Positions 11,902-52,620 are shown, counted from the first letter of the stretch. The stretch is 64,000 nt of DNA from an uncultured Kiritimatiellota bacterium (GCA_944389945.1 CALXOF010000001.1:3016-67015), one strand, 5' to 3'. Numbers and translations are program-made. Notes: generated by a model not told the origin, from the sequence alone.

Positions 11902-12232
11902 TTGGCTGATTAGCTGATTGGTGGGGCGGCGGTGCCGCCCCGGGAGGGAACCGCAGATTTCACAGATTTTGAGCAGATTAAGGGCGTGCTAGCGCACGCA
12001 GGACGCTCATTGGAAGCTTAGAGGCTGACCGTGGAAGGTTTGGCGCGTTGCGCCTGCACGGGCTTTCTTGATGGGGCTCCGCCCCGCGCCCTGTAGTTTC
12101 TTTGTCGCCCCGCAGGGGCGCTCCTGAATCTCCTGTGCCGCCTTTGCATCGTGGTAGAACGACAGCGCCCCCTCTTTCCTGCAAGAGTTGCGTCTTTACG
12201 GGTCCCCATTTTCCAGGGCACGACCGGGCGAC

Positions 12233-12259
12233 TTGACTCGGGGGGGGGTAAGCTATACT
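12233..12259 (+). promoter_or_regulatory. Promoter-like TTGACT-15 nt-TATACT with G9 homopolymer in the spacer
   Basis: TTGACT at 12233-12238. The G run spans 12240-12248. TATACT at 12254-12259. The ATG of the downstream gene is at 12285. Confidence 0.4.
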
Positions 12260-12284: not shown

Positions 12285-13175
12285 TTGATGATGGCCCACT
12301 CCGGTAACATTCTCTTTTTGGGTGGCGATGACGCCCAACGCAAGGCAATTCAGGCCGCGCTGAAACAGGCGTGCATGGGGCATGCGCTCTGGGACTTCTC
12401 TGAAGATGTCGAGAGGGGCAAGCAGACGCTCTCTTTTATTAATGGGACGCGTGTCTGCACCTTTGCATTTCGCCCACTTCCCGAAGACGTCCTTGCTTGC
12501 CGCAAGGCGGCTGCAGGGGTGGGCGTGACCTTTTTGGTTTGCATGGTGGAGGCCTCCGGTGAACCGTCCCAGTCCGTCTCACAGGCGTTGGAGGCGTTGC
12601 GGCAAGACCCGGCCTCCCCGACCGTCTATCCGCTTCTTTTGCTCGGAGCGAACCCCACGCAGATGGAGCGCGCGCTTCTGAAGTGGGGTGGGATGGGGCT
12701 TTCTCTTGGGGGCTCGCCGGATGCGCCTTATGGCATGAATGCTCTCTTGGCTCGTTGTCTGCCGTGGATGGCGATGGGCGAGGCACAGGGTGAGCTCACT
12801 GTTGCGGAGGTCGAGACGTTCTGGGGCGACTATTGCCGCTATGGCACCCTCAAGGCCCTCAATCGCTTGACGTTGCGCCTCAAGGACGAAGGCATTCTCG
12901 CGCCGCTTGACTATGCCTGGTTCCTTCCGCAAGGGACGCGCACCGTGCTCTCAGAGGACGTCCGCGCCGACCTCACAAAGTTGGTGTCGCTCTTGCCAAA
13001 GAGCGGTTGTAGCGCCCTCACCGTGGCCGCTCGCAAGCAATACATCGCGCGAATCGACCGCTTGGAACTCAACACCTTCCAAGTGCGGGAGTGGCGCACC
13101 GCTTTCACGATAGCGCTAAAGGCCGCAAAGTTCGAGAAGGAAAAGCCCGCCCTGCCCGCGCGGGGGGAGGGGTAA
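12285..13175 (+). CDS. Hypothetical protein (lower-GC gene)
   Basis: 296-aa ORF with no recognisable motifs. Local GC is clearly below the window average. Confidence 0.5.
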   Translation: MMMAHSGNILFLGGDDAQRKAIQAALKQACMGHALWDFSEDVERGKQTLSFINGTRVCTFAFRPLPEDVLACRKAAAGVGVTFLVCMVEASGEPSQSVSQALEALRQDPASPTVYPLLLLGANPTQMERALLKWGGMGLSLGGSPDAPYGMNALLARCLPWMAMGEAQGELTVAEVETFWGDYCRYGTLKALNRLTLRLKDEGILAPLDYAWFLPQGTRTVLSEDVRADLTKLVSLLPKSGCSALTVAARKQYIARIDRLELNTFQVREWRTAFTIALKAAKFEKEKPALPARGEG

Positions 13176-18277: not shown

Positions 18278-18589
18278 GGCGGCAGGAGGAACCGCAGATT
18301 CCGAAGAATACAGCGCTCACAGAGAAGACAGAGGGGCACAGAGACGGGCGACGTGCTCCCGCACGCAGGACTGCCAGAATGTTTTTCAATCACAAAGGAC
18401 ACGAAGGACACAAAGGGATTGGTTGATTGGAGGGGTGTGGGGCGCTGCCCCACACCCCGGCAGGGAGAAGTTCTCCCTGCACCCCCGGCACGTCTGCGAC
18501 GTGCCAAAATTGAATGACTGGATGGCGGTTTCGTCAGTCGCCCCGTAGGGACGCTCCTGCATCTCCTGTTGGCTTGCTTTTCCAAGAAA

Positions 18590-19356: not shown

Positions 19357-19989
19357 TTACGAGGGGGCGGAGAGTGCTTCGTAGAGATCTGCGGCCCACG
19401 CGTGTTCGGGACGGGGATATTTGGCAACGAGGCGGCCCTCCACGGTGCGGAAGAGGGGGACCCAATCGGGCTCCTCCCCCGGGGCGACATCTGTCGAGTT
19501 GTCGTAGAAATAGGCACGGTCCACGAAAGTGGCGGCCTCTCCGGCATTGGCCATCGAGCGTGCGTAACGGGTGACAATCTTGTCGATGGGGACAGCGTGG
19601 CCGCCTTGCAAATACCGCGCGGCTACGCGTTTGGCGTTGATCGTGGGCGAATCGGTGCCCACGAAGAAGAGACGAATGAAAAAACCGGCTTGGTGGGCTC
19701 GGAAGAGGAAGTCTAGCTTCTCTTGCGTGGAGAAGACGGTTTCAAAGGCAAAGTCGCGTCCTTCGCGCAGACACGCCTCGCGTCGTTCTGTGGCCAGGCG
19801 TGCGGCAGTCAATATGGATGCTTGGTCGTTCCAACCATTCAACTCTCGTTCCGCGATGTCGTCGGGGTTGATATAGTCGCACCCCACCATCCATTTGTGG
19901 CGCAGGTCGTGCAATTGATGGGTAATGGAAGTCTTGCCGGAACCGTTCGGTCCGGCGACGACGACCAAGCGGGGGCGGAGGGCGCTCAT
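19357..19989 (-). CDS. Zeta-toxin-like / COG4185-type P-loop kinase (putative toxin)
   Basis: Walker A 'VVVAGPNGSGKTS'. About 210 aa. Stop/start overlap (ATGA) with the small upstream ORF. Confidence 0.65.
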   Translation of the reverse strand: MSALRPRLVVVAGPNGSGKTSITHQLHDLRHKWMVGCDYINPDDIAERELNGWNDQASILTAARLATERREACLREGRDFAFETVFSTQEKLDFLFRAHQAGFFIRLFFVGTDSPTINAKRVAARYLQGGHAVPIDKIVTRYARSMANAGEAATFVDRAYFYDNSTDVAPGEEPDWVPLFRTVEGRLVAKYPRPEHAWAADLYEALSAPS

Positions 19990-20165
19990 GAGCGGGCACG
20001 GCCTCTTGCTACGGCGGCGAAGATGCGGCGGCGGAGCTCCGCGTCAAACCGCGCCTGAGCCTCTTGGCCTTTGCGCAAGGTTTCGGCGCCGAAGGCCTTG
20101 ATGACGGCCTCCCATTGCGCCTGGGCCTCCGGGTCGCTTGTGATGGGCTCGCGATTCGCTTTCAT
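19986..20165 (-). CDS. Small protein (59 aa), putative antitoxin partner of zeta-like ATPase
   Basis: 'MKANREPITSDPEAQAQWEAVIKAFGAETLRKGQEAQARFDAELRRRIFAAVARGRARS'. Overlaps the downstream start by 4 nt. Confidence 0.4.
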   Translation of the reverse strand: MKANREPITSDPEAQAQWEAVIKAFGAETLRKGQEAQARFDAELRRRIFAAVARGRARS

Positions 20166-20713
20166 GACAATAGTGTAGCACATTGGAAGGTTGGAAGCTT
20201 GGAGGCTTGGAAGTTTGGCTTTGTTGGTGGGGCTCCGCCCCACACCCCAGCGGAGGAAGTTTGGAAGCTTGGCTTCTCCACGAAGACACGAAGGAGCGCA
20301 AGGGCCTGGGCACAAGGGGCGGCTTGCGCCGCCCCGGAGAACGGAAAACGGAGAACAGAGAACAGAGAGCGCGCGGCAAGCGCGCGATGGGCAAGGCGCT
20401 GTACAGGGCGGCGTCAGCCGCCGTCCTATTCCTCCTACCGCATCGTCTGAGGGCGGTTTTCTTGGGAAAGCGACAAGGCGCGAAGCGGAGGGCGACGGGC
20501 GCGGTCAGCGGCGGAGCCGCAGAGCGACCGATGGAGCCCGAAGCGGTTCGCGCCCCATAGCGTCTTTGCGGTTCGGCGGGGAGCTATTCCTCGGGAGGGG
20601 AGGGGGAATAAAACACGGGTATTAAAAATAAAACTTGCCCCCCCCTTGTGTTATGTTAGCATAATGGTGTTTTCGGACACCTCGCCCGAAGGAATTCAAG
20701 GATTGATGAAATC

Positions 20714-21358
20714 ATGAAACGACTGTTGTTTGCCTCGCTCGTCGCTGTCGCGGCGACCACCCTCCAGGCTGTAAATTACAACTGGACAGCTGTCAATACC
20801 AACAATGCCGCCACCGGCCAGGTGACGCTCGAGAACGGCCTTAGCCACACCAAGGGCTTCGCCGTCAGCCTCACCATCAACGTCACCCAAGTGCCGGCGT
20901 CCATCACCGGTGACTGGTGGCCGGCGATTCTCAGCTTGGGAACCTCTACGGAGAACCGGCCGAACATCACTGCCAACATGGCGGGGGATAACGTCATCCG
21001 CCTTGACACGAAGGCCGGCGACACGGGGAGCACCGCGACCACCATCACGACAGAGTCCTCATTGACCACTGGTAAGCACACGATTGTTCTGGCCTACGAT
21101 GGTACGAATATGACGCTGACTCTGGATGGGACCCAGATTGCCACGACCGCTTACACCCTGACCTACGACCCGAACCTCGTGGCTTGGGGCCAGCAGGCCG
21201 GATATCCGAATGACACGTACCTGAACGCCAACGACCAGTTCCAGTACACGATTGAGTCGTTGCAGGTCGGTCGGGTGGAGACCATCCCCGAGCCGACGGC
21301 GCTGGCGTTGCTCGCCCTTGGCGTGGCCGGCGTGGCCCTCCGCCGCCGCGTGGCTTAA
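20714..21358 (+). CDS. PEP-CTERM sorting-domain secreted protein (LamG-like)
   Basis: Signal peptide 'MKRLLFASLVAVAATTLQA'. C-terminus 'PEPTALALLALGVAGVALRRRVA'. C8 tract in the promoter at 20656-20663. Confidence 0.85.
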   Translation: MKRLLFASLVAVAATTLQAVNYNWTAVNTNNAATGQVTLENGLSHTKGFAVSLTINVTQVPASITGDWWPAILSLGTSTENRPNITANMAGDNVIRLDTKAGDTGSTATTITTESSLTTGKHTIVLAYDGTNMTLTLDGTQIATTAYTLTYDPNLVAWGQQAGYPNDTYLNANDQFQYTIESLQVGRVETIPEPTALALLALGVAGVALRRRVA

Positions 21359-21380
21359 GCGGACTTCGGTCCTTTGCAAG

Positions 21381-21407
21381 GCGCCCCACCCGGGGCGCCT
21401 TTCTTTG
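21381..21407 (+). terminator. Rho-independent terminator after PEP-CTERM gene
   Basis: gcgcccc-accc-ggggcgc hairpin followed by TTTCTTTG. Confidence 0.55.
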
Positions 21408-23442: not shown

Positions 23443-23699
23443 AACCGTGGGAGCGGGGGTGTTGAGTGGGGAGAACGGAAAACGGAGAACGGAGAACGGA
23501 GAACAGAGAACGGAGCGTGCAGGCGCGAAGCGCCAAACCTTCCACGGCTACAGAACGCTCCTGCGGGGCGACGGTCAGGCCGTGTGCATTACTGTTTGCA
23601 GCCTTTGCTTTGCCATGCTGACCGAGGAATAATTTGGCGCCCGCTTGCCGGACGCATCTGTTCTCCGTTCTCTGTTCTCTGGGGCGGCAACGCCGCCCC

Positions 23700-32209: not shown

Positions 32210-32769
32210 AAGCACAATAGTATAGCACATCTCCCTCCGCTTTGCTTGCGCCCGATTTTCAAGAGGAAGTTTGGAGGCTTGGAAGTTTGGAGGCTTGGAG
32301 GAGCCACAGAGGTTGAGTCCCGGGCTGCCGCCCTTGGCGGCGATGAGAGCGGACGTTGCATGGCAAGCGCAGGACTGCCAGAATAGAGAAACCGCCGATT
32401 AGATTGGAAGTTTGGAAGCTTGGAGGTTTGGAAGTTTGGCTGGGCACACCAATTGTCTTGCTGAAGACTGCCAGAATGGGAAAACCGCCGATTACGCAGA
32501 TTAAAGCAGATTAGGGGCCGGCTACCGCCGGCAGGACTGCCAGAATAGGAAACCGCAGATTTCACAGATTTTGGGCAGATTAAGGGCGTGCTGGCGCACG
32601 CAGGACGCGCAATTGGAAGTTTAGAAGTTTGGAGGCTTGGAGGCTTGGCCTTTTTGCGGCTTACGCCGCCCTGTACAGCGCCTCGTCCATCGCCCGCTTG
32701 CGGGCGGTCCTGAATCTCCTGCATCTCCTGAATCTCCTGTTGGGCCATCTGAGGAGTGCGTCCCAAAGA

Positions 32770-32797
32770 AAAAGCCCCGCGGGGCGGGGCTTTTTGG
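32770..32797 (-). terminator. Terminator after PEP-CTERM gene (gccccgcggggcggggc + T-run)
   Basis: Identical hairpins also follow the PEP-CTERM genes ending at 33907 and 34814. Confidence 0.65.
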
Positions 32798-32812
32798 GGA
32801 TTGGGCGGGGGC

Positions 32813-33544
32813 TTAGGCCACGCGGCGGCGGAGGGCCACGCCGGCCACGCCCAGGGCGAGCAACGCCAGCGCCGTCGGCTCGGGGACGGAGGGATCTGGG
32901 TCGGAAGCTTCAGAGGCCGCAATCACTTGGTCGTAGGTCATCCCGGCCACGTAGTCGATGTCCATCGTGTAGGTATCCGCATTATTGTCCCACAGGTTCA
33001 TCCGCACATCGGTGCCGGAATCGCTCGTGCCCTGCTGCCCCCAGACGATGTGGGTCAGCGACTGGGTGGTGGTGTACGTGCCGTACAGGGTGCCGTCGAG
33101 GTAGAAGCTCAGCGTGTTGTTACCGTTCCAAGAGAGGACAAACTCATGGGTCGAGTTCGAGGTGAGCGTGACTTGTTCGCCAATCACCGACGGCGCGTCG
33201 CTCGCGGCCCCAAAGCCAATCGTGCCGCTGCTTTTGTCCGCGCAGTCGGCGTTGAACCGAATCGCCTGGCTGTTACCCTGGAAGGCGGCACCAATGATCG
33301 ACGGGTATTTCTGCCCACCGTTCGTGTAGGCGTTGATTGTTCCGGCGCTGAGGACGGCGGAGAGGGTCCATGAGCCGGAGCCAAGGTTGACCTGGTTCGA
33401 GCCAGTTCCGACGGTCATGGAACCGGAACTGGTCTTTGTGCCGAGGTCAACGTGGCCGGTGATCTTGTCCCAGTTGATGTTTGCCGCTTGGGTGGCGCCG
33501 AAGGCGAGTGCGGCGAGAGCGAGGGTGAGGAGTTTGCGTGTCAT
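32813..33544 (-). CDS. PEP-CTERM sorting-domain secreted protein (LamG-like)
   Basis: Signal peptide 'MTRKLLTLALAALAFGATQA'. C-terminal 'VPEPTALALLALGVAGVALRRRVA'. G9/C9 tract in the promoter at 33625-33633. Confidence 0.85.
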   Translation of the reverse strand: MTRKLLTLALAALAFGATQAANINWDKITGHVDLGTKTSSGSMTVGTGSNQVNLGSGSWTLSAVLSAGTINAYTNGGQKYPSIIGAAFQGNSQAIRFNADCADKSSGTIGFGAASDAPSVIGEQVTLTSNSTHEFVLSWNGNNTLSFYLDGTLYGTYTTTQSLTHIVWGQQGTSDSGTDVRMNLWDNNADTYTMDIDYVAGMTYDQVIAASEASDPDPSVPEPTALALLALGVAGVALRRRVA

Positions 33545-33865
33545 CTATGTCCCAACTTTCCGGTGTGTACACCTATCTTACAGGAAGGAATCCTGAAGAC
33601 TGTTTGCATATTAGCATAACTTTAGGGGGGGGGCAAGTGTTATTTAGAGGAAGCTTGGAAGTTTGGAGGCTTGGAAGTTTGGTTCTCGGGGAGGGGCGTT
33701 GCCCCACACCCTGCTTTTCTTCTTTAGAAAAGGTTGCAAGGCGCGAAACGGAGGGCGGCGGGCGCGGTCAGCGGCGAAGCCGCAGGGCGCCCGATGGAGC
33801 CCGAAGCGGTTCGCGCCCACAGTTGCGTCTTTGCGGTTCTCATTAATGGTGAGTGGGCAAAGAAA

Positions 33866-33893
33866 AAGCCCCGCGGGAGCGGGGCTTTTTGGG
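33866..33893 (-). terminator. Terminator after PEP-CTERM gene
   Basis: aaaaagccccgcgggagcggggcttttt. Confidence 0.65.
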
Positions 33894-33906
33894 GATTGGC
33901 GGGGGC

Positions 33907-34602
33907 TTAGGCCACGCGGCGGCGGAGGGCCACGCCGGCCACGCCAAGGGCGAGCAACGCCAAGGCCGTCGGCTCGGGGACGGAAGGATCCGGGTCGGGT
34001 TCCGGCAGGACAGCGGTCATCTGGGCGACCATGCGATCAATCTCCTCTTGGGTGAGGATGCCTTCATAGGCCGCCGTCTCATTGATGGTCCAGGCATCGT
34101 TCGCGAAGGTGGAGACAATGATATTTTCGGACGTGTTCGTATCCAAGACGGAGAAGAGCTGCACACCATTCGCGTAGCCGGTGATGGTGGCTTGATTGTT
34201 CGCGTTGCGCTCAATCGTGATGGTGAGCAGGTATTTCGTACCGACCGAAAGGGTTGGGGTATTGCTTGTGGTTCCCCAGCCAGTCTCAGAACCACCCTTC
34301 TTTTCCACGCCGATATGGCCATTGAGGGCATTCCCGGAGCCATACATATAGGCATAGGCGTGTCCGGCATCCCAGAGGCCGAGATCTGCGATGGCGGCTT
34401 GTTCTGTGCTGGCAGCCGTCGCATTCGCGGTCACCACCATGGCATAGGAGAGCGTTTTGGTGGAGGTAGAACCTTCCGTGGCGAAGTATTTATCGGTGTA
34501 GATGCTGTTCTCGGCTCCGGTTTGCCACTGCATGGTGACAGCCTGGGCGGAGAGGGCGAGGCCGGCGGCGGCACAAGCCAAGGCAAAACGTACGCATTTC
34601 AT
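33907..34602 (-). CDS. PEP-CTERM sorting-domain secreted protein
   Basis: Start at Met160 of track ORF 33907..35079 ('MKCVRFALACAAAGLALSAQA'). PEP-CTERM tail. G8 tract at 34680-34687 upstream. Confidence 0.8.
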   Translation of the reverse strand: MKCVRFALACAAAGLALSAQAVTMQWQTGAENSIYTDKYFATEGSTSTKTLSYAMVVTANATAASTEQAAIADLGLWDAGHAYAYMYGSGNALNGHIGVEKKGGSETGWGTTSNTPTLSVGTKYLLTITIERNANNQATITGYANGVQLFSVLDTNTSENIIVSTFANDAWTINETAAYEGILTQEEIDRMVAQMTAVLPEPDPDPSVPEPTALALLALGVAGVALRRRVA

Positions 34603-34768
34603 GGGTGTGTCCTTCGTCCCACGGGGGGCAGGACATCTGCCCGATTCACATGGAACGCCATTAAGATAGCACAAGTGACGGGGGGGGCAAGTGTTATTTA
34701 TTGTGTCAAGGCGCAACAAGGGAAGATTGGGGGCTTGGAAGGTTGGTTTCAAGCGGAGAATGGCAAAG

Positions 34769-34797
34769 AAAAAGCCCCGCGGGGGCGGGGCTTTTTG
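34769..34797 (-). terminator. Terminator after PEP-CTERM gene
   Basis: aaaaagccccgcgggggcggggcttttt. Confidence 0.65.
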
Positions 34798-34813
34798 GGG
34801 GATGGGCGGGGGC

Positions 34814-35491
34814 TTAGGCCACGCGGCGGCGGAGGGCCACGCCGGCCACGCCGAGGGCGAGCAACGCCAGGGCGGTCGGCTCAGGGATGTTGGTCGGCAT
34901 AATCGCGGATCCCGCGTCAACCAGCTTGGTGATCTCATCCGTGGTGAGGGTGCCATCATAAGTGGCCGCATCGTTGAAGGTCCACGCGGCATTGTTGGCG
35001 AAGGTCGCCGTGAGGGCGCCATCGGTGGGCTCAAGGATGGGATTGGCGTTGCCATTGAACGTAATTGGGGTCGTCCCATTGTTGATATAGAGCGTCACGT
35101 TCCAACGGTTGTTGGTGGAATCCCAGGTGCCATTGATCACCACGATGTGCGAGCCGGACGCAAGCGAACTATTGTTGTCCGTCCAAGTCGTAGCGTTAGA
35201 AGTCGTACTGTCGAAGTGGGCGCCAAAGCCATTCGCGGCGGAATAGGCCAAGAGACCGACAGCAGTGTCATCTCGCGTGGAGGTCCCGAAGGTCACCATG
35301 CTGGAGTTCTCGAGAGACTGGCCGGAGAAGGTCGTCGTGATCTTCACGGCGAGGGCGAAGTCGGCCTTCGCGTCACTCGAGCCGAAGATTTCCTGCGAGC
35401 CAGGGACGGTCGTGCTGCTCCAGGTCATATTCGCGGCGGAGGCAACCGTCGCCAGGCCAAGGGCCGCAATCAATCCAAGACAACGTTTCAT
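34814..35491 (-). CDS. PEP-CTERM sorting-domain secreted protein (LamG-like)
   Basis: Signal peptide 'MKRCLGLIAALGLATVASA'. PEP-CTERM tail. TTGACG-N18-TATTAT promoter with a G9 spacer tract (plus-strand C9 at 35573-35581). Confidence 0.85.
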   Translation of the reverse strand: MKRCLGLIAALGLATVASAANMTWSSTTVPGSQEIFGSSDAKADFALAVKITTTFSGQSLENSSMVTFGTSTRDDTAVGLLAYSAANGFGAHFDSTTSNATTWTDNNSSLASGSHIVVINGTWDSTNNRWNVTLYINNGTTPITFNGNANPILEPTDGALTATFANNAAWTFNDAATYDGTLTTDEITKLVDAGSAIMPTNIPEPTALALLALGVAGVALRRRVA

Positions 35492-35647
35492 GTCCTGCTA
35501 TCCTTTCTGTGTCGCGGCAACCACGTCGCGATTTATCAGCAATTCCATACTGATGAAGTAAATAATAGTCTACCCCCCCCCGTTTCGTCAAGTCTTTTTT
35601 TGCCTCTTGTGGGGCTTCGCGACTCCGGCCTCAAAAGGGGTCTTGGA

Positions 35648-35754
35648 GAAACCCTTAAGGGTCCGCGGTGAGACCCTATAGTGGTCGGAGGTCAACCACT
35701 ATAGTGGTCGGGGTCGAGACCCTATAGTGGTCCGACCCGAAACCCTTAAGGGTC
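35648..35754. repeat. MITE-like palindrome array (copy 3)
   Basis: aacccttaagggtc ... gaccctatagtggtc ... gaccactatagtggtc ... gaccctatagtggtc ... aacccttaagggtc. Confidence 0.8.
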
Positions 35755-36037: not shown

Positions 36038-36997
36038 TCAGCTTCCCGCCCTTCCTGGGGCGGGAGGAGGTGGCGGGGTGCGGTCGAAGCGGCGGGTGGC
36101 GAGGGCGAGGTAGTGGCGCCAGGTGGGGCGAATGGTGACGCGGGGGAGGAGGTCGCGTTCCGTACGGCGGCGGTGGAAGGGCATGGGGTCGCGTCGGGGG
36201 AGGGGAAGGACGGCGTGGCGGAGGGCGCAGAGGGTGACGCAGAGGAGGAAGGGGAGTCCGCGGGTGAGCCAGAGGCGGGGTCCCCAGAGGCTGCAGGCGG
36301 TGGAGAGGAGGTTGGAGAGGTAGCGGCGCCAGACGCGGCGGCCGGGGAGTGCGCGGGCGGTGGTGCCTTCGGCGTGGGGGACGGGCGGGGGGGGGACGTA
36401 CCAGCATTCCCAGCCGGCGAGCCAGAGGCGGTGGCAGAGGTCGATGTCTTCGCCGTAGCAGAAGTAGGAGGGGCGGAAGAGTCCGCCGGCGGTCTCGATG
36501 GCGGCGCGGCGGAGGAGGAGGCAGGCGCCTTTGCCGGCGAGGACGGGGTGGGGGCGCTCGGCGTGTGGGCCGGGGGGGCGGCGGTAGCCTTGGTGCCAGA
36601 GGATGCCGAGCGGGGTGAGGTATTCGCCGCAGGTGTCGAGGGTGCCGTCGGGGAGGATGAGGGTGGGCTGGAGGGCGGCGAGGTGGGGGTAGGTGTCGAG
36701 GGCGGCTTGGAGGATGCGGATGGGTTCGGCGGCGGGGAGGGTGACGTCGGTGTTGAGGAGGAGGATGTGTTCGCCTTCGGCATGGGGGAGGGCGAGGTTG
36801 TTGCCGCCGGCAAAGCCGAGGTTGCGGGGGGCGCGGAGGAGGGTGACGCCGTCGGGGACGGTGAGGGGGGGCTCGCTGGCGTTGTCGACGACGAGGACTT
36901 GGGCTTCGGGCAGGTGGCGCAGGACGGCGGCCAAGCACCCTGAGAGGAGTTCGGGGTGATTCCAAGCGACAATGATGACGGTCAGCCGCGCATGCAT
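36038..36997 (-). CDS. Family-2 glycosyltransferase
   Basis: 'TVIIVAWN', 'VVDNAS', 'NLGFAGGNN', 'YGEDIDLCHRL'. Confidence 0.85.
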   Translation of the reverse strand: MHARLTVIIVAWNHPELLSGCLAAVLRHLPEAQVLVVDNASEPPLTVPDGVTLLRAPRNLGFAGGNNLALPHAEGEHILLLNTDVTLPAAEPIRILQAALDTYPHLAALQPTLILPDGTLDTCGEYLTPLGILWHQGYRRPPGPHAERPHPVLAGKGACLLLRRAAIETAGGLFRPSYFCYGEDIDLCHRLWLAGWECWYVPPPPVPHAEGTTARALPGRRVWRRYLSNLLSTACSLWGPRLWLTRGLPFLLCVTLCALRHAVLPLPRRDPMPFHRRRTERDLLPRVTIRPTWRHYLALATRRFDRTPPPPPAPGRAGS

Positions 36998-37939
36998 GGG
37001 GAGATTATAACAAAGGAGAACGGAAAACGGAGAACGGAGAACGGAACGCGCGGCAAGCGCGCGACGGGTGAGGGCGCTGGGAGGGCGTGGAAGGTTTGCC
37101 CTGCGGGGCTGACACGAAGGTGCACGAAGGACAAGGGGCGCTGACGCGCCCCGGAGAACGGAGCGTGCAGGCGCGAAGCGCCAAACCTTCCACGGCCACA
37201 GAGAACGGAGAACAGAACGCCCCTGCGGGGCGACGGGTGGAGTGGTGTGCCAGGGCTTCTCGGTCTCATCGCCGCCAAGGGCGGCGGTCCAGGCTTCAAC
37301 CTCTGTGGCTCCTCCAAGCCTCCAAGCTTCTAAACTTCCAAGCTTCCCATAGCCCCTGCACCCCCGGCACGTCTGCGACGTGCCAGAAGGACGACGAGGT
37401 AGGACATATAGGACATATAGGACCTATAGGACGGGGCTACGCCGGAGGACTCCCCAAAACCAAAGCGTGGCGTACGAAGCCCGCCATGCTCCTACAGGCC
37501 CCCGGGCCGGACGTGCGCCTTGCGCGCACGCACGGCCCGCCTTCAGCGTCGCCTTTCTTTGTGTCCTTTGTGAGACCTTGTGTCCTTTGTGATAAATCCA
37601 CACTAGCAGTCCTGCGTGCGCTAGCACGCCCTTAATCTGCAACAAATCTGTGAAATCTGCGGTTCCCCTGCGTCGTGCTCTTAGCCGTGGAAGGTTTGGC
37701 GCTTCGCGCCTGCACGGTGTCTCTTTGTGGTCCTTCGTGTTCTTTGTGATAGCCGCGCAGCGTTCGGTCTCATCGCCGCCAGGGGCGGCGGCCCGGGCTT
37801 TCACCTCTGCGGCTCCTCCAAGCCTCTAAACTTCCAAACTTTCAAGCTTCTACGGGGGCGCTTTGCGCCCCCGTAAGCGGCGCGACGGCACAAAAAAAGG
37901 CCCCCGGATGGGGGGCCTTTTGTGCCGAGTCAGCGACGC
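36998..37939. repeat. Mosaic repeat block (heptad GAGAACG tracts, gcgcgcggcaagcgcgcg hairpin, ggtctcatcgccgccaagggcggcgg module, cacg..ctagcacgcccttaatctgc module)
   Basis: All modules recur elsewhere in the window in different orders (see findings). Confidence 0.7.
37893..37920 (-). terminator. Terminator after gap
   Basis: Minus strand: ggccccccatccgggggcc followed by T7. Confidence 0.7.
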
Positions 37940-39722
<1,783 letters not shown>

Positions 39723-51723: not shown

Positions 51724-51834
51724 AGACCCTATAGGGGTCGGCCCCGAGACCCTATAGTGGTCCGGGTTGAGACCCTATAGTGGTCCGGGTTGAGACCCTA
51801 TAGTGGTCCACTGCGAGACCCTATAGTGGTCCGG
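51724..51834. repeat. Palindrome array (copy 4, variant): five gaccctatagtggtc units at a regular 24-bp period, without the aacccttaagggt ends
   Basis: Units begin at about 51724, 51747, 51771, 51795 and 51819. Spacers of 9 nt are ggccccgag, cgggttgag, cgggttgag, cactgcgag. Confidence 0.8.
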
Positions 51835-52620
51835 GAAGGGGTGGCGTGCACCACCCCGGAGAACAGAGAACGGAGAACAGAGAACAGAACGCGCGGCAAG
51901 CGCGCGACGGACAAGCCGCTGGAAGGGTGTGGAGGGTTTACCCTGCGGGGCTGACACGAAGGTTCACGAAGAACCACGAAGGCACACGAAGACTGCCAGA
52001 ATAGTTGAAATCACAAAGGACACCGTGCAGGCGCGAAGCGACAAACCTTCCACGGCTAAGGACACAAAGGGGATTTTGGCTGATTAGCTGATTGGTTGAT
52101 TGAAGGGTGTGGGGCGCTGCCCCACCCCCCGGCAGGGAGAAGTTCTCCCTGCACCCCCGGCACGTCTGCGACGTGCCAGAAGGACAGCGCGGTAGGACAT
52201 ATAGGACGTATAGGACCTATAGGACGGAGCTGATGCCGGAGGACTCCCCAAAAACCAAAGCATGGCGTGCGAAGCCCGCCATGCCCCTACAGGCCCCCCG
52301 GGCCGGACGAGCGCCTTGCGCGCACGCACGGCCCGCCCCCTGCGCCGTGCTTTGTGTCCTTCGTGTCCTTTGTGATTTCCAATCCATTCTGGCAGTCCTG
52401 CCGGCGGTAGCCGGCCCCGAATCGGCTCCAATCGGCGTAATCGGCGGTTTCCTTATTCTGGCAGTCTCAGGCATCGCGGTAGGACATATAGGACCTATAG
52501 GACATATAGGACGGCGGCTGACGCCGCTTGCACAACGATTTTGCCCGTCGCGCGCTTGCCGCGCGCTCTGTTCACTGTTTTCTGTTCTCTGTTCTCTGGG
52601 GCGCGTCAGCGCCCCAATTG
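51835..52620. repeat. Mosaic repeat block
   Basis: GAGAACG tracts, gcgcgcggcaagcgcgcg hairpin, tgattagctgattgg, triple hairpin, ataggac octads, gattacgccgattggagccgattcgggg module. Confidence 0.7.

What the first reader, a model, noticed from the sequence alone, without database searches (positions are those of the whole stretch)
20640..20700. C8 homopolymer inside the promoter (-35/spacer) of PEP-CTERM gene 20714..21358
The sequence aaaacTTGCCCCCCCCttgtgttatgttagcATAATGg places an 8-C run (20656-20663) fused to a TTGCCC -35-like hexamer. A similar motif (aacacTTGCCCCCCCC) precedes the PEP-CTERM genes at 32813..33544 and 33907..34602. Homopolymer slippage in promoter spacers is an established phase-variation mechanism (Bordetella fim poly-C, Neisseria poly-G). 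Surface or secreted PEP-CTERM proteins are plausible contingency loci.
Basis: partly seen in the sequence, partly recalled or inferred. Interest (0 to 1): 0.65.

Follow-up and report, generated by a model that had tools for sequence, protein, structure and literature searches.

The report
Slippery poly-C tracts in surface-protein promoters
A run of eight to nine C (or G) bases sits inside the promoter of each PEP-CTERM surface-protein gene of this uncultured gut Kiritimatiellota bacterium, and its length differs between otherwise identical assemblies, which suggests the familiar mutational "volume knob" of pathogens also works in this little-known phylum.

Summary
It is fused to a TTG that sits 16 bp upstream of TATGTTAGCAT. 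That sequence matches TRTGnTAnnnT, the extended -10 motif of this genome (18 copies against 1.4 expected). The same core, AAATAAnACTTG-Cn-N5-TTATGYTAnnnT, precedes two more PEP-CTERM genes here. It also precedes PEP-CTERM genes in other Kiritimatiellota and Lentisphaeraceae MAGs. A second design, TTGAC-N-G9-N5-TATnnT, precedes the fourth PEP-CTERM gene and one unrelated gene.

I compared independent metagenome assemblies that carry identical proteins. Six of ten uninterrupted tracts differ in length: C8/C9, C8/C9/C10, C7/C8/C9 and G9/G13. In three alignment sets the tract is the only indel. An interrupted version (CCCTCCCC) is invariant in six assemblies, and of 24 other runs only one differs in length.

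The observed C lengths correspond to -35/-10 spacers of 15-18 bp. No expression data exist. This is a new member of a known kind (compare porA, opc, fim and vlp), in an uncultured PVC gut lineage. Interest is moderate.

The parts
20624..20634 (+). A-rich block AAAAATAAAAC just upstream of the -35 (UP-element-like); part of the conserved type A core
   Evidence: Columns A28, A29, T30, A32 and C35 are invariant in the alignment of 13 distinct promoters.
20635..20640 (+). -35-like hexamer TTGCCC of promoter P20
   Evidence: TTG is invariant in 13 promoters. The distance to the -10 hexamer is 16 bp with C8. Other promoters in the window have TTGnnn 17-18 bp from TAnnnT.
20638..20645 (+). C8 homopolymer, the flagged tract; it overlaps the -35 hexamer and the upstream part of the spacer
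   Evidence: It is C8 in 8 assemblies and C9 in 1. The 87% orthologue has C8, C9 and C10.
20652..20662 (+). Extended -10 TATGTTAGCAT (TRTG + n + TAGCAT)
   Evidence: It matches TRTGnTAnnnT, which occurs 18 times against 1.41 expected, with 0 of 100 shuffles reaching that count. The match is in register with all type A promoters.
20714..21358 (+). Gene for a 214-aa secreted Laminin_G_3 / PEP-CTERM protein
   Evidence: Pfam PF13385 (E = 8e-8) and PF07589 (E = 9e-7), both above their cut-offs. TIGR02595 is above its cut-off. Its own terminator lies at 21378-21401.
33608..33641 (-). Promoter P33: AACACTTG-C9 (33625-33633)-TAAAG-TTATGCTAATAT, spacer 17
   Evidence: The tract is C9 in 7 assemblies. 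Another strain carries a different allele with C8.
32813..33544 (-). PEP-CTERM gene (243 aa) driven by P33
34663..34695 (-). Promoter P34: AACACTTG-C8 (34680-34687)-GTCAC-TTGTGCTATCTT, spacer 16
   Evidence: The tract is C8 in 2 assemblies and C9 in 6. It is the only difference between L010 and L012 over 4.7 kb.
33907..34602 (-). PEP-CTERM gene (231 aa) driven by P34
35562..35591 (-). Promoter P35 (type B): TTGACG-aaac-G9 (35573-35581)-tagac-TATTAT, spacer 18
   Evidence: It is the best sigma-70-like match in the scan, 10 of 12. Motif. G9 in 9 assemblies.
34814..35491 (-). PEP-CTERM gene (225 aa) driven by P35
12233..12259 (+). Promoter P12 (type B): TTGACT-c-G9 (12240-12248)-taagc-TATACT, spacer 15
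   Evidence: G9 in 5 assemblies.
12291..13175 (+). Gene downstream of P12: a 294-aa protein with no family match and no PEP-CTERM tail
   Evidence: There is no Pfam or NCBIfam hit. The gene is called with this start in public assemblies.

Best explanation
The C8 run is a hypermutable simple-sequence tract built into a strong housekeeping-type (sigma-70-like) promoter. The promoter reads: A-rich block, TTG of the -35, C tract, 5 variable nt, then the extended -10 TRTGnTAnnnT. Slipped-strand mispairing during replication adds or removes a C. This changes the -35/-10 spacer by 1 bp, with spacer = tract length + 8, so C7 to C10 give 15 to 18 bp. It also rotates the TTG relative to the -10. The expected result is a heritable, reversible shift in transcription of the downstream monocistronic gene for a secreted, lectin-like PEP-CTERM protein. 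Each paralogue has its own tract, so a population would carry many combinations of expression levels, as with contingency loci.

Shown here: the position of the tract relative to a genome-wide over-represented -10 motif; conservation of the core across species and two phyla; length polymorphism between otherwise identical assemblies; and the stability of an interrupted tract. Inferred: use of this TTG and -10 by RNA polymerase; an effect of length on transcription; slippage as the cause; and an adaptive value.
For: 1. Anatomy. TRTGnTAnnnT occurs 18 times in the window against 1.41 expected. Nearly all copies lie just upstream of genes, and several have TTGnnn 17-18 bp away. The type A tracts sit in exactly that register.

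2. Conservation. A scan of 185,579 species genomes returned 13 hits. All 7 hits in the PVC group, from 3 Kiritimatiellota and 2 Lentisphaeraceae MAGs, lie 50-100 nt upstream of the start of a PEP-CTERM gene or, in two loci that end before the gene does, an ORF that could not be read through to its tail. All have C8 or C9, although C7-C11 was allowed. Thirteen distinct promoters share an invariant core while their flanks are not conserved.

3. Hypermutability. Tract lengths across independent assemblies are as follows: P34, C8 x2 and C9 x6; P20, C8 x8 and C9 x1; P0010, C8 x2, C9 x1 and C10 x2; P0068, C8 x4 and C9 x4; P0074, C7 x5, C8 x3 and C9 x1; P0051, G9 x2 and G13 x1. The tract is the only indel in three of four alignment sets, of 7733, 2869 and 3661 columns. 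L010 and L012 differ only at the tract over 4.7 kb. Both length variants occur in well-covered contigs, for example 29x against 39x.

4. Controls. An interrupted tract, CCCTCCCC, in the same promoter core is invariant in 6 assemblies. Of 24 other runs of 6-9 nt, including a T9, only one differs in length (A6/A7, between two haplotype groups).

5. Two unrelated promoter designs, with a C run next to the -35 and a G run next to the -10, share only the property of a long G/C run in the spacer. That fits selection for mutability better than selection for a specific binding sequence.

6. The products are secreted proteins with a PEP-CTERM sorting tail, the class of gene expected at contingency loci. 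Each gene has its own terminator.
Against: There is no transcription start site, expression or read-level data, so promoter use and the effect of length are inferred. Three tracts (P33 C9, P35 G9 and P12 G9) are invariant in 7, 9 and 5 assemblies. At P0068 the tract length mostly follows the SNP haplotype, with one low-coverage exception, so switching may be slow. The common states C8 and C9 both give near-optimal spacers (16 and 17 bp), and many promoters of this genome lack a -35 altogether, so the effect on expression could be small. In the 87% orthologue the key A of the proposed -10 is C (TCGCAT), which leaves the exact -10 of the P20 lineage uncertain. At least one PEP-CTERM gene of a related species has no tract.
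Confidence: 0.65

Rival explanations
1. The C-rich stretch is a fixed cis-regulatory element. The conserved block AAATAAnACTTGCCCCCCCC would be the binding site of a dedicated activator, repressor or alternative sigma factor for PEP-CTERM genes. The length polymorphism would then be a neutral by-product of having a long homopolymer, not a regulatory device.
For: The block upstream of the TTG is invariant in 13 promoters from two phyla, which is more than a generic UP element needs. In the cross-species scan and the window's own copies the C length stays within 8-9, and within 7-10 once assemblies of the orthologues and paralogues are included. The interrupted version remains C-rich. C8 and C9 may both be functionally equivalent.
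Against: Type B and P0051-type promoters carry G runs at a different position, and they lack the AAATAAnAC block. The length varies between otherwise identical genomes far more than anything else does. There is no sigma-54 signature (no GG at -24) and no conserved ECF-type -10 in the N5 region. A regulator site and a mutable spacer are not mutually exclusive.
Confidence: 0.2
2. The conserved promoter core, including the tract, together with the invariant PEP-CTERM tail, serves mainly as a homology handle for recombination. That recombination would swap the variable lectin-like gene bodies between paralogous loci and between strains. Tract-length differences would simply travel with the recombined segments.
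For: L030 and L031 are 100% identical except from just after the C tract to the start of the tail of gene 3. L010 and L015 diverge from tail to tail. L083 diverges from L078 exactly upstream of AAATAACACTTG. The tails are 100% identical although the gene bodies are only 31-40% identical.
Against: Several length differences occur with no flanking change at all. Recombination does not explain these cases, so the idea can only supplement the slippage model.
Confidence: 0.1
3. The finding is an artefact or chance. Homopolymer length calls in short-read assemblies are unreliable, and runs of C are common in a genome with 64% G+C.
For: Overall, C7 runs are not enriched (22 against 31.7 expected). 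The intergenic excess alone gives p of about 0.06. Two of the variant calls come from low-coverage contigs (L009, and L055 at 2.6x).
Against: Both length variants occur in long contigs with 25-96x coverage. G9, C9 and T9 runs in the same assemblies are perfectly stable. The motif is absent from all shuffles and is conserved across species.
Confidence: 0.05

Closest known systems
Neisseria meningitidis porA (poly-G in the -35/-10 spacer) and opc (poly-C next to or overlapping the -35)
   Same: A G/C homopolymer lies between or against the promoter hexamers of an outer-surface protein gene. A change of 1 nt alters the spacer and the transcript level (porA as summarised in PMC3899988; opc from my own knowledge).
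   Different: This is a different phylum (Kiritimatiellota and Lentisphaerota, uncultured gut bacteria). The promoter has an extended -10. The tract is shorter (7-10 nt). The gene family is PEP-CTERM lectin-like proteins. No expression data exist here.
Mycoplasma hyorhinis vlp family (poly-A tract in each promoter) (own knowledge)
   Same: A family of paralogous surface-protein genes in which each gene has its own promoter homopolymer between the -35 and the -10, allowing combinatorial variation. The 5' regions are conserved and the gene bodies are variable.
   Different: The tract there is poly-A rather than poly-C or poly-G. The products are lipoproteins rather than exosortase substrates. 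On/off behaviour has been demonstrated experimentally there but not here.
Bordetella pertussis fim2/fim3 promoter C-stretch and Haemophilus influenzae hifA/hifB TA repeat
   Different: The fim genes need the BvgA activator and have a longer C-stretch. The hif repeat is a dinucleotide repeat in a bidirectional promoter.
Akkermansia muciniphila poly-G tract in the fumarate hydratase promoter
   Same: It is a precedent within the PVC group for length variation of a promoter G tract between closely related strains (PMC8920140).
   Different: It is a single metabolic gene with a much longer tract (18-29 G). There is no conserved promoter core shared by a gene family.

Membership tests
Simple-sequence-repeat (homopolymer) promoter phase variation / contingency locus | An uninterrupted homopolymer long enough to slip (about 7 nt or more) | tested here: met
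   C8 at 20638-20645, C9 at 33625-33633, C8 at 34680-34687, G9 at 35573-35581 and G9 at 12240-12248.
Simple-sequence-repeat (homopolymer) promoter phase variation / contingency locus | The tract lies within the core promoter, between or overlapping the -35 and -10 | tested here: met
   This is met at the motif level only. The TTG sits 15-18 bp from TAnnnT, preceded by TRTG. That motif occurs 18 times against 1.41 expected. P35 scores 10 of 12 in the promoter scan. No transcription start site data exist.
Simple-sequence-repeat (homopolymer) promoter phase variation / contingency locus | Tract length differs between otherwise (near-)identical genomes | tested here: met
   Six of 10 uninterrupted tracts are polymorphic between assemblies. 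The tract is the only indel in 3 of 4 alignment sets. An interrupted tract is invariant.
Simple-sequence-repeat (homopolymer) promoter phase variation / contingency locus | High-frequency, reversible switching within a clonal population | not testable with these tools
   This needs raw reads or cultures. At P0068 the length mostly tracks haplotype, so the switching rate is unknown.
Simple-sequence-repeat (homopolymer) promoter phase variation / contingency locus | Expression level depends on tract length | not testable with these tools
   No transcriptome or reporter data are available.
Simple-sequence-repeat (homopolymer) promoter phase variation / contingency locus | The controlled genes encode surface-exposed or secreted products | tested here: met
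   Four of the five genes downstream of a tract in the window have an N-terminal signal-like sequence and a PEP-CTERM tail. The fifth (12291-13175) has neither.
PEP-CTERM / exosortase substrates | A C-terminal PEP motif, a hydrophobic helix and a basic cluster | tested here: met
   PF07589 scores 29 bits against a cut-off of 20.7, and TIGR02595 is above its cut-off of 16, in all four proteins. The tail is [IV]PEPTALALLALGVAGVALRRRVA.
PEP-CTERM / exosortase substrates | An exosortase (EpsH/Xrt) is encoded in the same genome | not tested
   None was seen among the window genes scanned. The rest of the genome was not available.
Extended -10 (TRTGn-TAnnnT) sigma-70-type promoters | A TG or TRTG motif one base upstream of a TAnnnT hexamer, located upstream of genes | tested here: met
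   There are 18 matches against 1.41 expected, nearly all of them intergenic and upstream of genes. The type A promoters fit the motif. The type B promoters (P12 and P35) lack TRTG.

The most novel reading that the evidence does not exclude
The tracts may be one half of a two-layer surface-variation system in gut Kiritimatiellota and Lentisphaerota. In the first layer, every lectin-like PEP-CTERM gene carries a conserved 40-nt promoter core with a mutable C tract, which tunes expression. In the second layer, that core and the DNA-identical PEP-CTERM tail plus terminator act as recombination handles, through which gene bodies are exchanged between paralogous slots and between strains, giving antigenic variation. 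This would be a commensal, PVC-group counterpart of the opa/pil systems of Neisseria or the vlp/vsp systems of Mycoplasma.
Probability: 0.3. Interest if true: 0.7.

Novelty: new member of a known kind. Interest (0 to 1): 0.5.

Why it matters
Promoter homopolymer switches are textbook for a handful of cultured pathogens. They have not been described for Kiritimatiellota or Lentisphaerota: no paper in the library combines Kiritimatiell* with phase variation. If the tracts tune expression, these uncultured gut bacteria diversify their exosortase-sorted, lectin-like surface proteins by the same contingency logic. That would bear on phage and host-immune evasion, on strain calling in metagenomes, and on why such loci break assemblies. 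The work also gives a first sequence-level picture of the housekeeping promoter of this lineage (TRTGnTAnnnT, with an optional TTG 16-18 bp upstream). It identifies a natural "locked" control, CCCTCCCC, that makes the hypothesis directly testable from public reads.

Tried and rejected
**Chance from G+C content.** C7 runs overall are not enriched, and a Markov test on intergenic DNA alone gives only p of about 0.06. The case therefore rests on context and conservation, not on run counts.

This gives a spacer of about 20 bp and is not conserved in the paralogues. I replaced it with TAGCAT preceded by TRTG. CATAAT at 20660-20665 stays as a possible alternative, because the orthologue has TCGCAT.

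**Sigma-54 or ECF promoter.** There is no GG at -24, and the N5 region is not conserved.

**Minus-strand promoter at 20653-20663.** This would start transcription at the G run, as in reiterative transcription. It arises from a near-palindrome that is unique to P20 and is absent from the orthologue and the paralogues.

**Structured RNA.** Rfam gave no hit in the window.

**PEP-CTERM genes in JGI metagenomes.** A scan with the conserved tail returned only 7 distant loci, none with a G/C run of 7 or more. These serve as a negative control but add no new examples.

**Look-up of the 12288 start.** This found nothing. The gene is on record with its start at 12291.

**Not attempted.** I judged structure prediction of the proteins unnecessary, because the Pfam and NCBIfam hits suffice.

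Full report
**1. What is in the sequence**

The quoted string is present at 20630-20667. The C8 run occupies 20638-20645, not 20656-20663. It lies 69 nt upstream of the ATG of a 214-aa protein (20714-21358). That protein has a signal-like N-terminus, a Laminin_G_3 domain and a PEP-CTERM tail, and its gene has its own terminator at 21378-21401.

AAMACTTGCCCCCCCC occurs three times against 0.00 expected.

It occurs at 12232-12256 (plus strand) and 35565-35592 (minus strand), again with none in the shuffles. The second of these precedes the fourth PEP-CTERM gene (35491..34814). Every PEP-CTERM gene in the window therefore has a tract. The fifth tract precedes a 294-aa protein with no family match.

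**2. Is it more than chance?**

By run counts alone, it is not. The C7 pattern gives 22 matches against 31.7 expected. The runs are unusual in where they sit. Five of the six G/C runs of 8 or more lie in the roughly 22% of the window that is non-coding. Coding DNA has 1 against 5.3 expected from a first-order Markov model, while intergenic DNA has 5 against 1.6 (p about 0.06). By my own binomial arithmetic, 5 or more of 6 falling in 22% of the sequence has p of about 0.002. The decisive evidence is motif context and conservation, described next.

**3. Organism**

The window is part of ENA scaffold ONAT22-1_SAMEA6814568_METAG-scaffold_22. It is collinear, at 94-99% nucleotide identity, with contig CALXMT010000029 of the MAG 'uncultured Kiritimatiellaeota bacterium BRZ_EK__bin27'. 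The neighbouring genes are ordinary chromosomal genes: SMC, GAPDH, IF-1, folP, cdaA, rpsP and trmD.

**4. Promoter anatomy**

TRTGnTAnnnT occurs 18 times in the window against 1.41 expected, and 0 of 100 shuffles reach that count. Nearly every copy lies just upstream of a gene. Five of the twelve copies that are not type A have TTGnnn 17-18 bp upstream of the TAnnnT hexamer. I take this motif to be the housekeeping extended -10 promoter of the organism.

The three type A sites fit it in register: an A-rich block, then TTG, the C tract, 5 unconserved nt, TTATG[CT] and TAnnnT. The spacer between TTGCCC and TAnnnT equals the tract length plus 8. C8 therefore gives 16 bp, C9 gives 17, C10 gives 18 and C7 gives 15.

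For P20 the -10 is TAGCAT (20657-20662), preceded by TATG.

The type B sites lack TRTG but have near-perfect TTGAC. P35 is the best sigma-70-like hit in its region (TTGACG, 18 bp, TATTAT; 10 of 12). P12 has a spacer of only 15 bp.

**5. Conservation**

I scanned one genome from each of 185,579 species for ACTTG-C7-N5-9-TTRTGYTA, which allows C7 to C11. The scan returned 13 hits.

- Seven hits are in the PVC group: three Kiritimatiellota MAGs and two Lentisphaeraceae MAGs.
- All seven lie upstream of an ORF; in the four loci where the nearest start is unambiguous it is 50-70 nt downstream. Four of these ORFs read through to a PEP-CTERM tail almost identical to the window's; a fifth locus ends within that tail, and two end before the gene.
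- All seven have C8 or C9.
- The other six hits have C7 to C9 and come from unrelated phyla. They look like ordinary promoters or chance matches.

An alignment of 13 distinct type A promoters shows an invariant core, AAATAAnACTTG-Cn-N5-TTATGYTAnnnT, with unconserved flanks.

Seven distant PEP-CTERM loci from JGI metagenomes have no G/C run of 7 or more. One PEP-CTERM gene of a related Kiritimatiellota species has only an interrupted G4CG5. The tract is therefore a property of this promoter family, not of PEP-CTERM genes in general.

The two Lentisphaeraceae loci also carry a G13 tract (TTGACA-G13-cgtga-TATCTT, upstream of a 1271-aa secreted protein) and a G11 tract (upstream of a PEP-CTERM gene).

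**6. Length polymorphism**

Exact-protein look-ups returned the same genes from many independent metagenome assemblies. The window's own contig is counted once.

| Promoter | Relation to the window | Tract lengths across assemblies |
|---|---|---|
| P20 | window gene 20714-21358 | C8 x8, C9 x1 |
| P34 | window gene 34602..33907 | C8 x2, C9 x6 |
| P33 | window gene 33544..32813 | C9 x7 |
| P35 | window gene 35491..34814 | G9 x9 |
| P12 | window gene 12291-13175 | G9 x5 |
| P0010 | 87% orthologue of the P20 gene | C8 x2, C9 x1, C10 x2 |
| P0041 | 73% orthologue | C7 x5, in two alleles that differ by one T beside the run |
| P0051 | 59% homologue, with a G tract before TGTGCTATTCT | G9 x2, G13 x1 |
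| P0068 | paralogue, 37% identity | C8 x4, C9 x4 |
| P0074 | paralogue family, 31% identity | C7 x5, C8 x3, C9 x1 |

Six of the ten uninterrupted tracts are polymorphic. In three of four alignment sets the tract is the only indel (7733, 2869 and 3661 columns). L010 and L012 differ only at the tract over 4.7 kb. Both states are found in long, well-covered contigs, for example 29x against 39x and 96x.

**7. Controls**

The P0062 promoter (51% homologue) has the same core with an interrupted run, CCCTCCCC. It is identical in six assemblies. Of 24 other runs of 6-9 nt in the same alignments, including a T9 and several A7 and C7 runs, one differs in length. That one is an A6/A7 difference between two haplotype groups of the P0010 species. 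One G8 run is broken by a SNP. My own Fisher-type arithmetic for 6 of 10 against 1 of 24 gives p of about 0.001. General homopolymer miscalling is unlikely, because G9, C9 and T9 runs in the same assemblies are stable.

**8. Limits**

- Three tracts never vary.
- At P0068 the length largely follows the SNP haplotype, with one exception at 2.6x coverage. The differences may be slowly evolving strain markers rather than rapid switches.
- C8 and C9 both give good spacers, and many promoters here work without any -35. The effect may be a modest change in expression level rather than on/off.
- The -11 A of the proposed -10 is a C in the 87% orthologue.
- No start-site, transcript or read data were available.

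**9. Mechanism and rivals**

The best explanation (0.65) is slipped-strand length change of a homopolymer in the -35/-10 spacer, which tunes transcription of individual surface-protein genes. This is the logic known from porA and hifA/B (PMC3899988) and, from my own knowledge, from opc, fim and vlp.

The fact that two or three unrelated promoter designs share only a long G/C run in the spacer argues for selection on mutability. Depletion of such runs in coding DNA shows that they are otherwise avoided.

The rivals are:

- a fixed regulator-binding block with neutral length variation (0.2), supported by the strikingly invariant AAATAAnAC;
- a recombination handle (0.1);
- artefact or chance (0.05).

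**10. Comparison and novelty**

The locus meets the testable criteria for a homopolymer promoter contingency locus: the tract itself, its position, polymorphism between near-identical genomes, and surface-protein targets. The two functional criteria, switching rate and expression effect, could not be tested.

It is a new member of a known kind. The mechanism is classical. The lineage (uncultured gut Kiritimatiellota and Lentisphaerota), the gene family (exosortase-sorted lectin-like proteins) and the cross-phylum conserved promoter core are new as far as the searchable literature shows. The only PVC-group precedent found is the fumarase poly-G tract of Akkermansia (PMC8920140).

**11. Side observation that raises the ceiling**

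The four paralogues are 31-40% identical in the body but 100% identical in the 23-aa tail. The tail and terminator are also near-identical at the DNA level (family D4). Between strains, alleles are swapped with break points just after the C tract and at the start of the tail (L030 against L031), from tail to tail (L010 against L015), or just upstream of the core (L083 against L078). This suggests cassette exchange layered on top of tract variation.

Noticed in passing
window 32764-32904, 33858-33998 and 34765-34905 (tails and terminators); loci L030/L031, L010/L015 and L078/L083: The PEP-CTERM paralogues share a DNA-identical tail plus terminator and a conserved promoter core, while the gene bodies are only 31-40% identical. 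Between strains, whole gene bodies are replaced, with break points at the C tract, at the tails or just upstream of the core. This looks like cassette exchange by recombination.
   Followed up: partly
window intergenic regions throughout, e.g. 18419-18566, 20185-20247, 23470-23515, 35670-35746, 37298-37445, 39321-39468, 51724-51833 and 52091-52238: Nearly every intergenic region is a mosaic. Short tandem repeats (periods 7-10 and 23; units such as GGAGAAC, TTGGAAGC, TAGGACATA, CACAAAGGA and GCTGATTG) are interleaved with small GC hairpins such as GCGCGCGGCAAGCGCGCG and GGCGCGAAGCGCC. There are 37 direct-repeat families in 64 kb. The arrangement resembles REP/BIME elements but is unusually modular. 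One 8-nt unit differs in copy number between assemblies.
   Followed up: partly
window 36387-36395 (minus strand), inside the GT2 glycosyltransferase gene 36997..36038: A C9 run lies on the coding strand of a glycosyltransferase gene next to the PEP-CTERM gene array. It is the only G/C run of 8 or more in coding sequence, and could be a frameshift-type switch. It is invariant in the three assemblies that cover it.
   Followed up: partly
window, 18 sites listed (e.g. 6428, 13856, 24302, 27382, 32219, 51228 and 52619): TRTGnTAnnnT is more than 12-fold over-represented and marks the likely housekeeping promoters of this Kiritimatiellota genome. Many copies have no -35 and sit directly after a GC hairpin.
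   Followed up: yes
window 20653-20663 (minus strand): The P20 -10 region is nearly palindromic, so the extended -10 motif also matches on the opposite strand. A transcript from that strand would start at the G run. This is not conserved in the orthologue or the paralogues, so it is probably coincidental.
   Followed up: yes
window 12240-12248 and 35573-35581; loci L057-L061: The two G9 tracts of the TTGAC-type promoters never vary (5 and 9 assemblies), whereas C tracts of equal length do. The P12 spacer is only 15 bp, which predicts a weak or silent promoter at G9.
   Followed up: partly
window 19357-20183 (minus strand): A Zeta_toxin/AAA_33 gene and a small 65-aa upstream ORF, possibly a toxin-antitoxin pair, lie directly upstream of the P20 promoter and diverge from it. 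In some strains of the orthologous locus this flank is replaced by a different gene.
   Followed up: no
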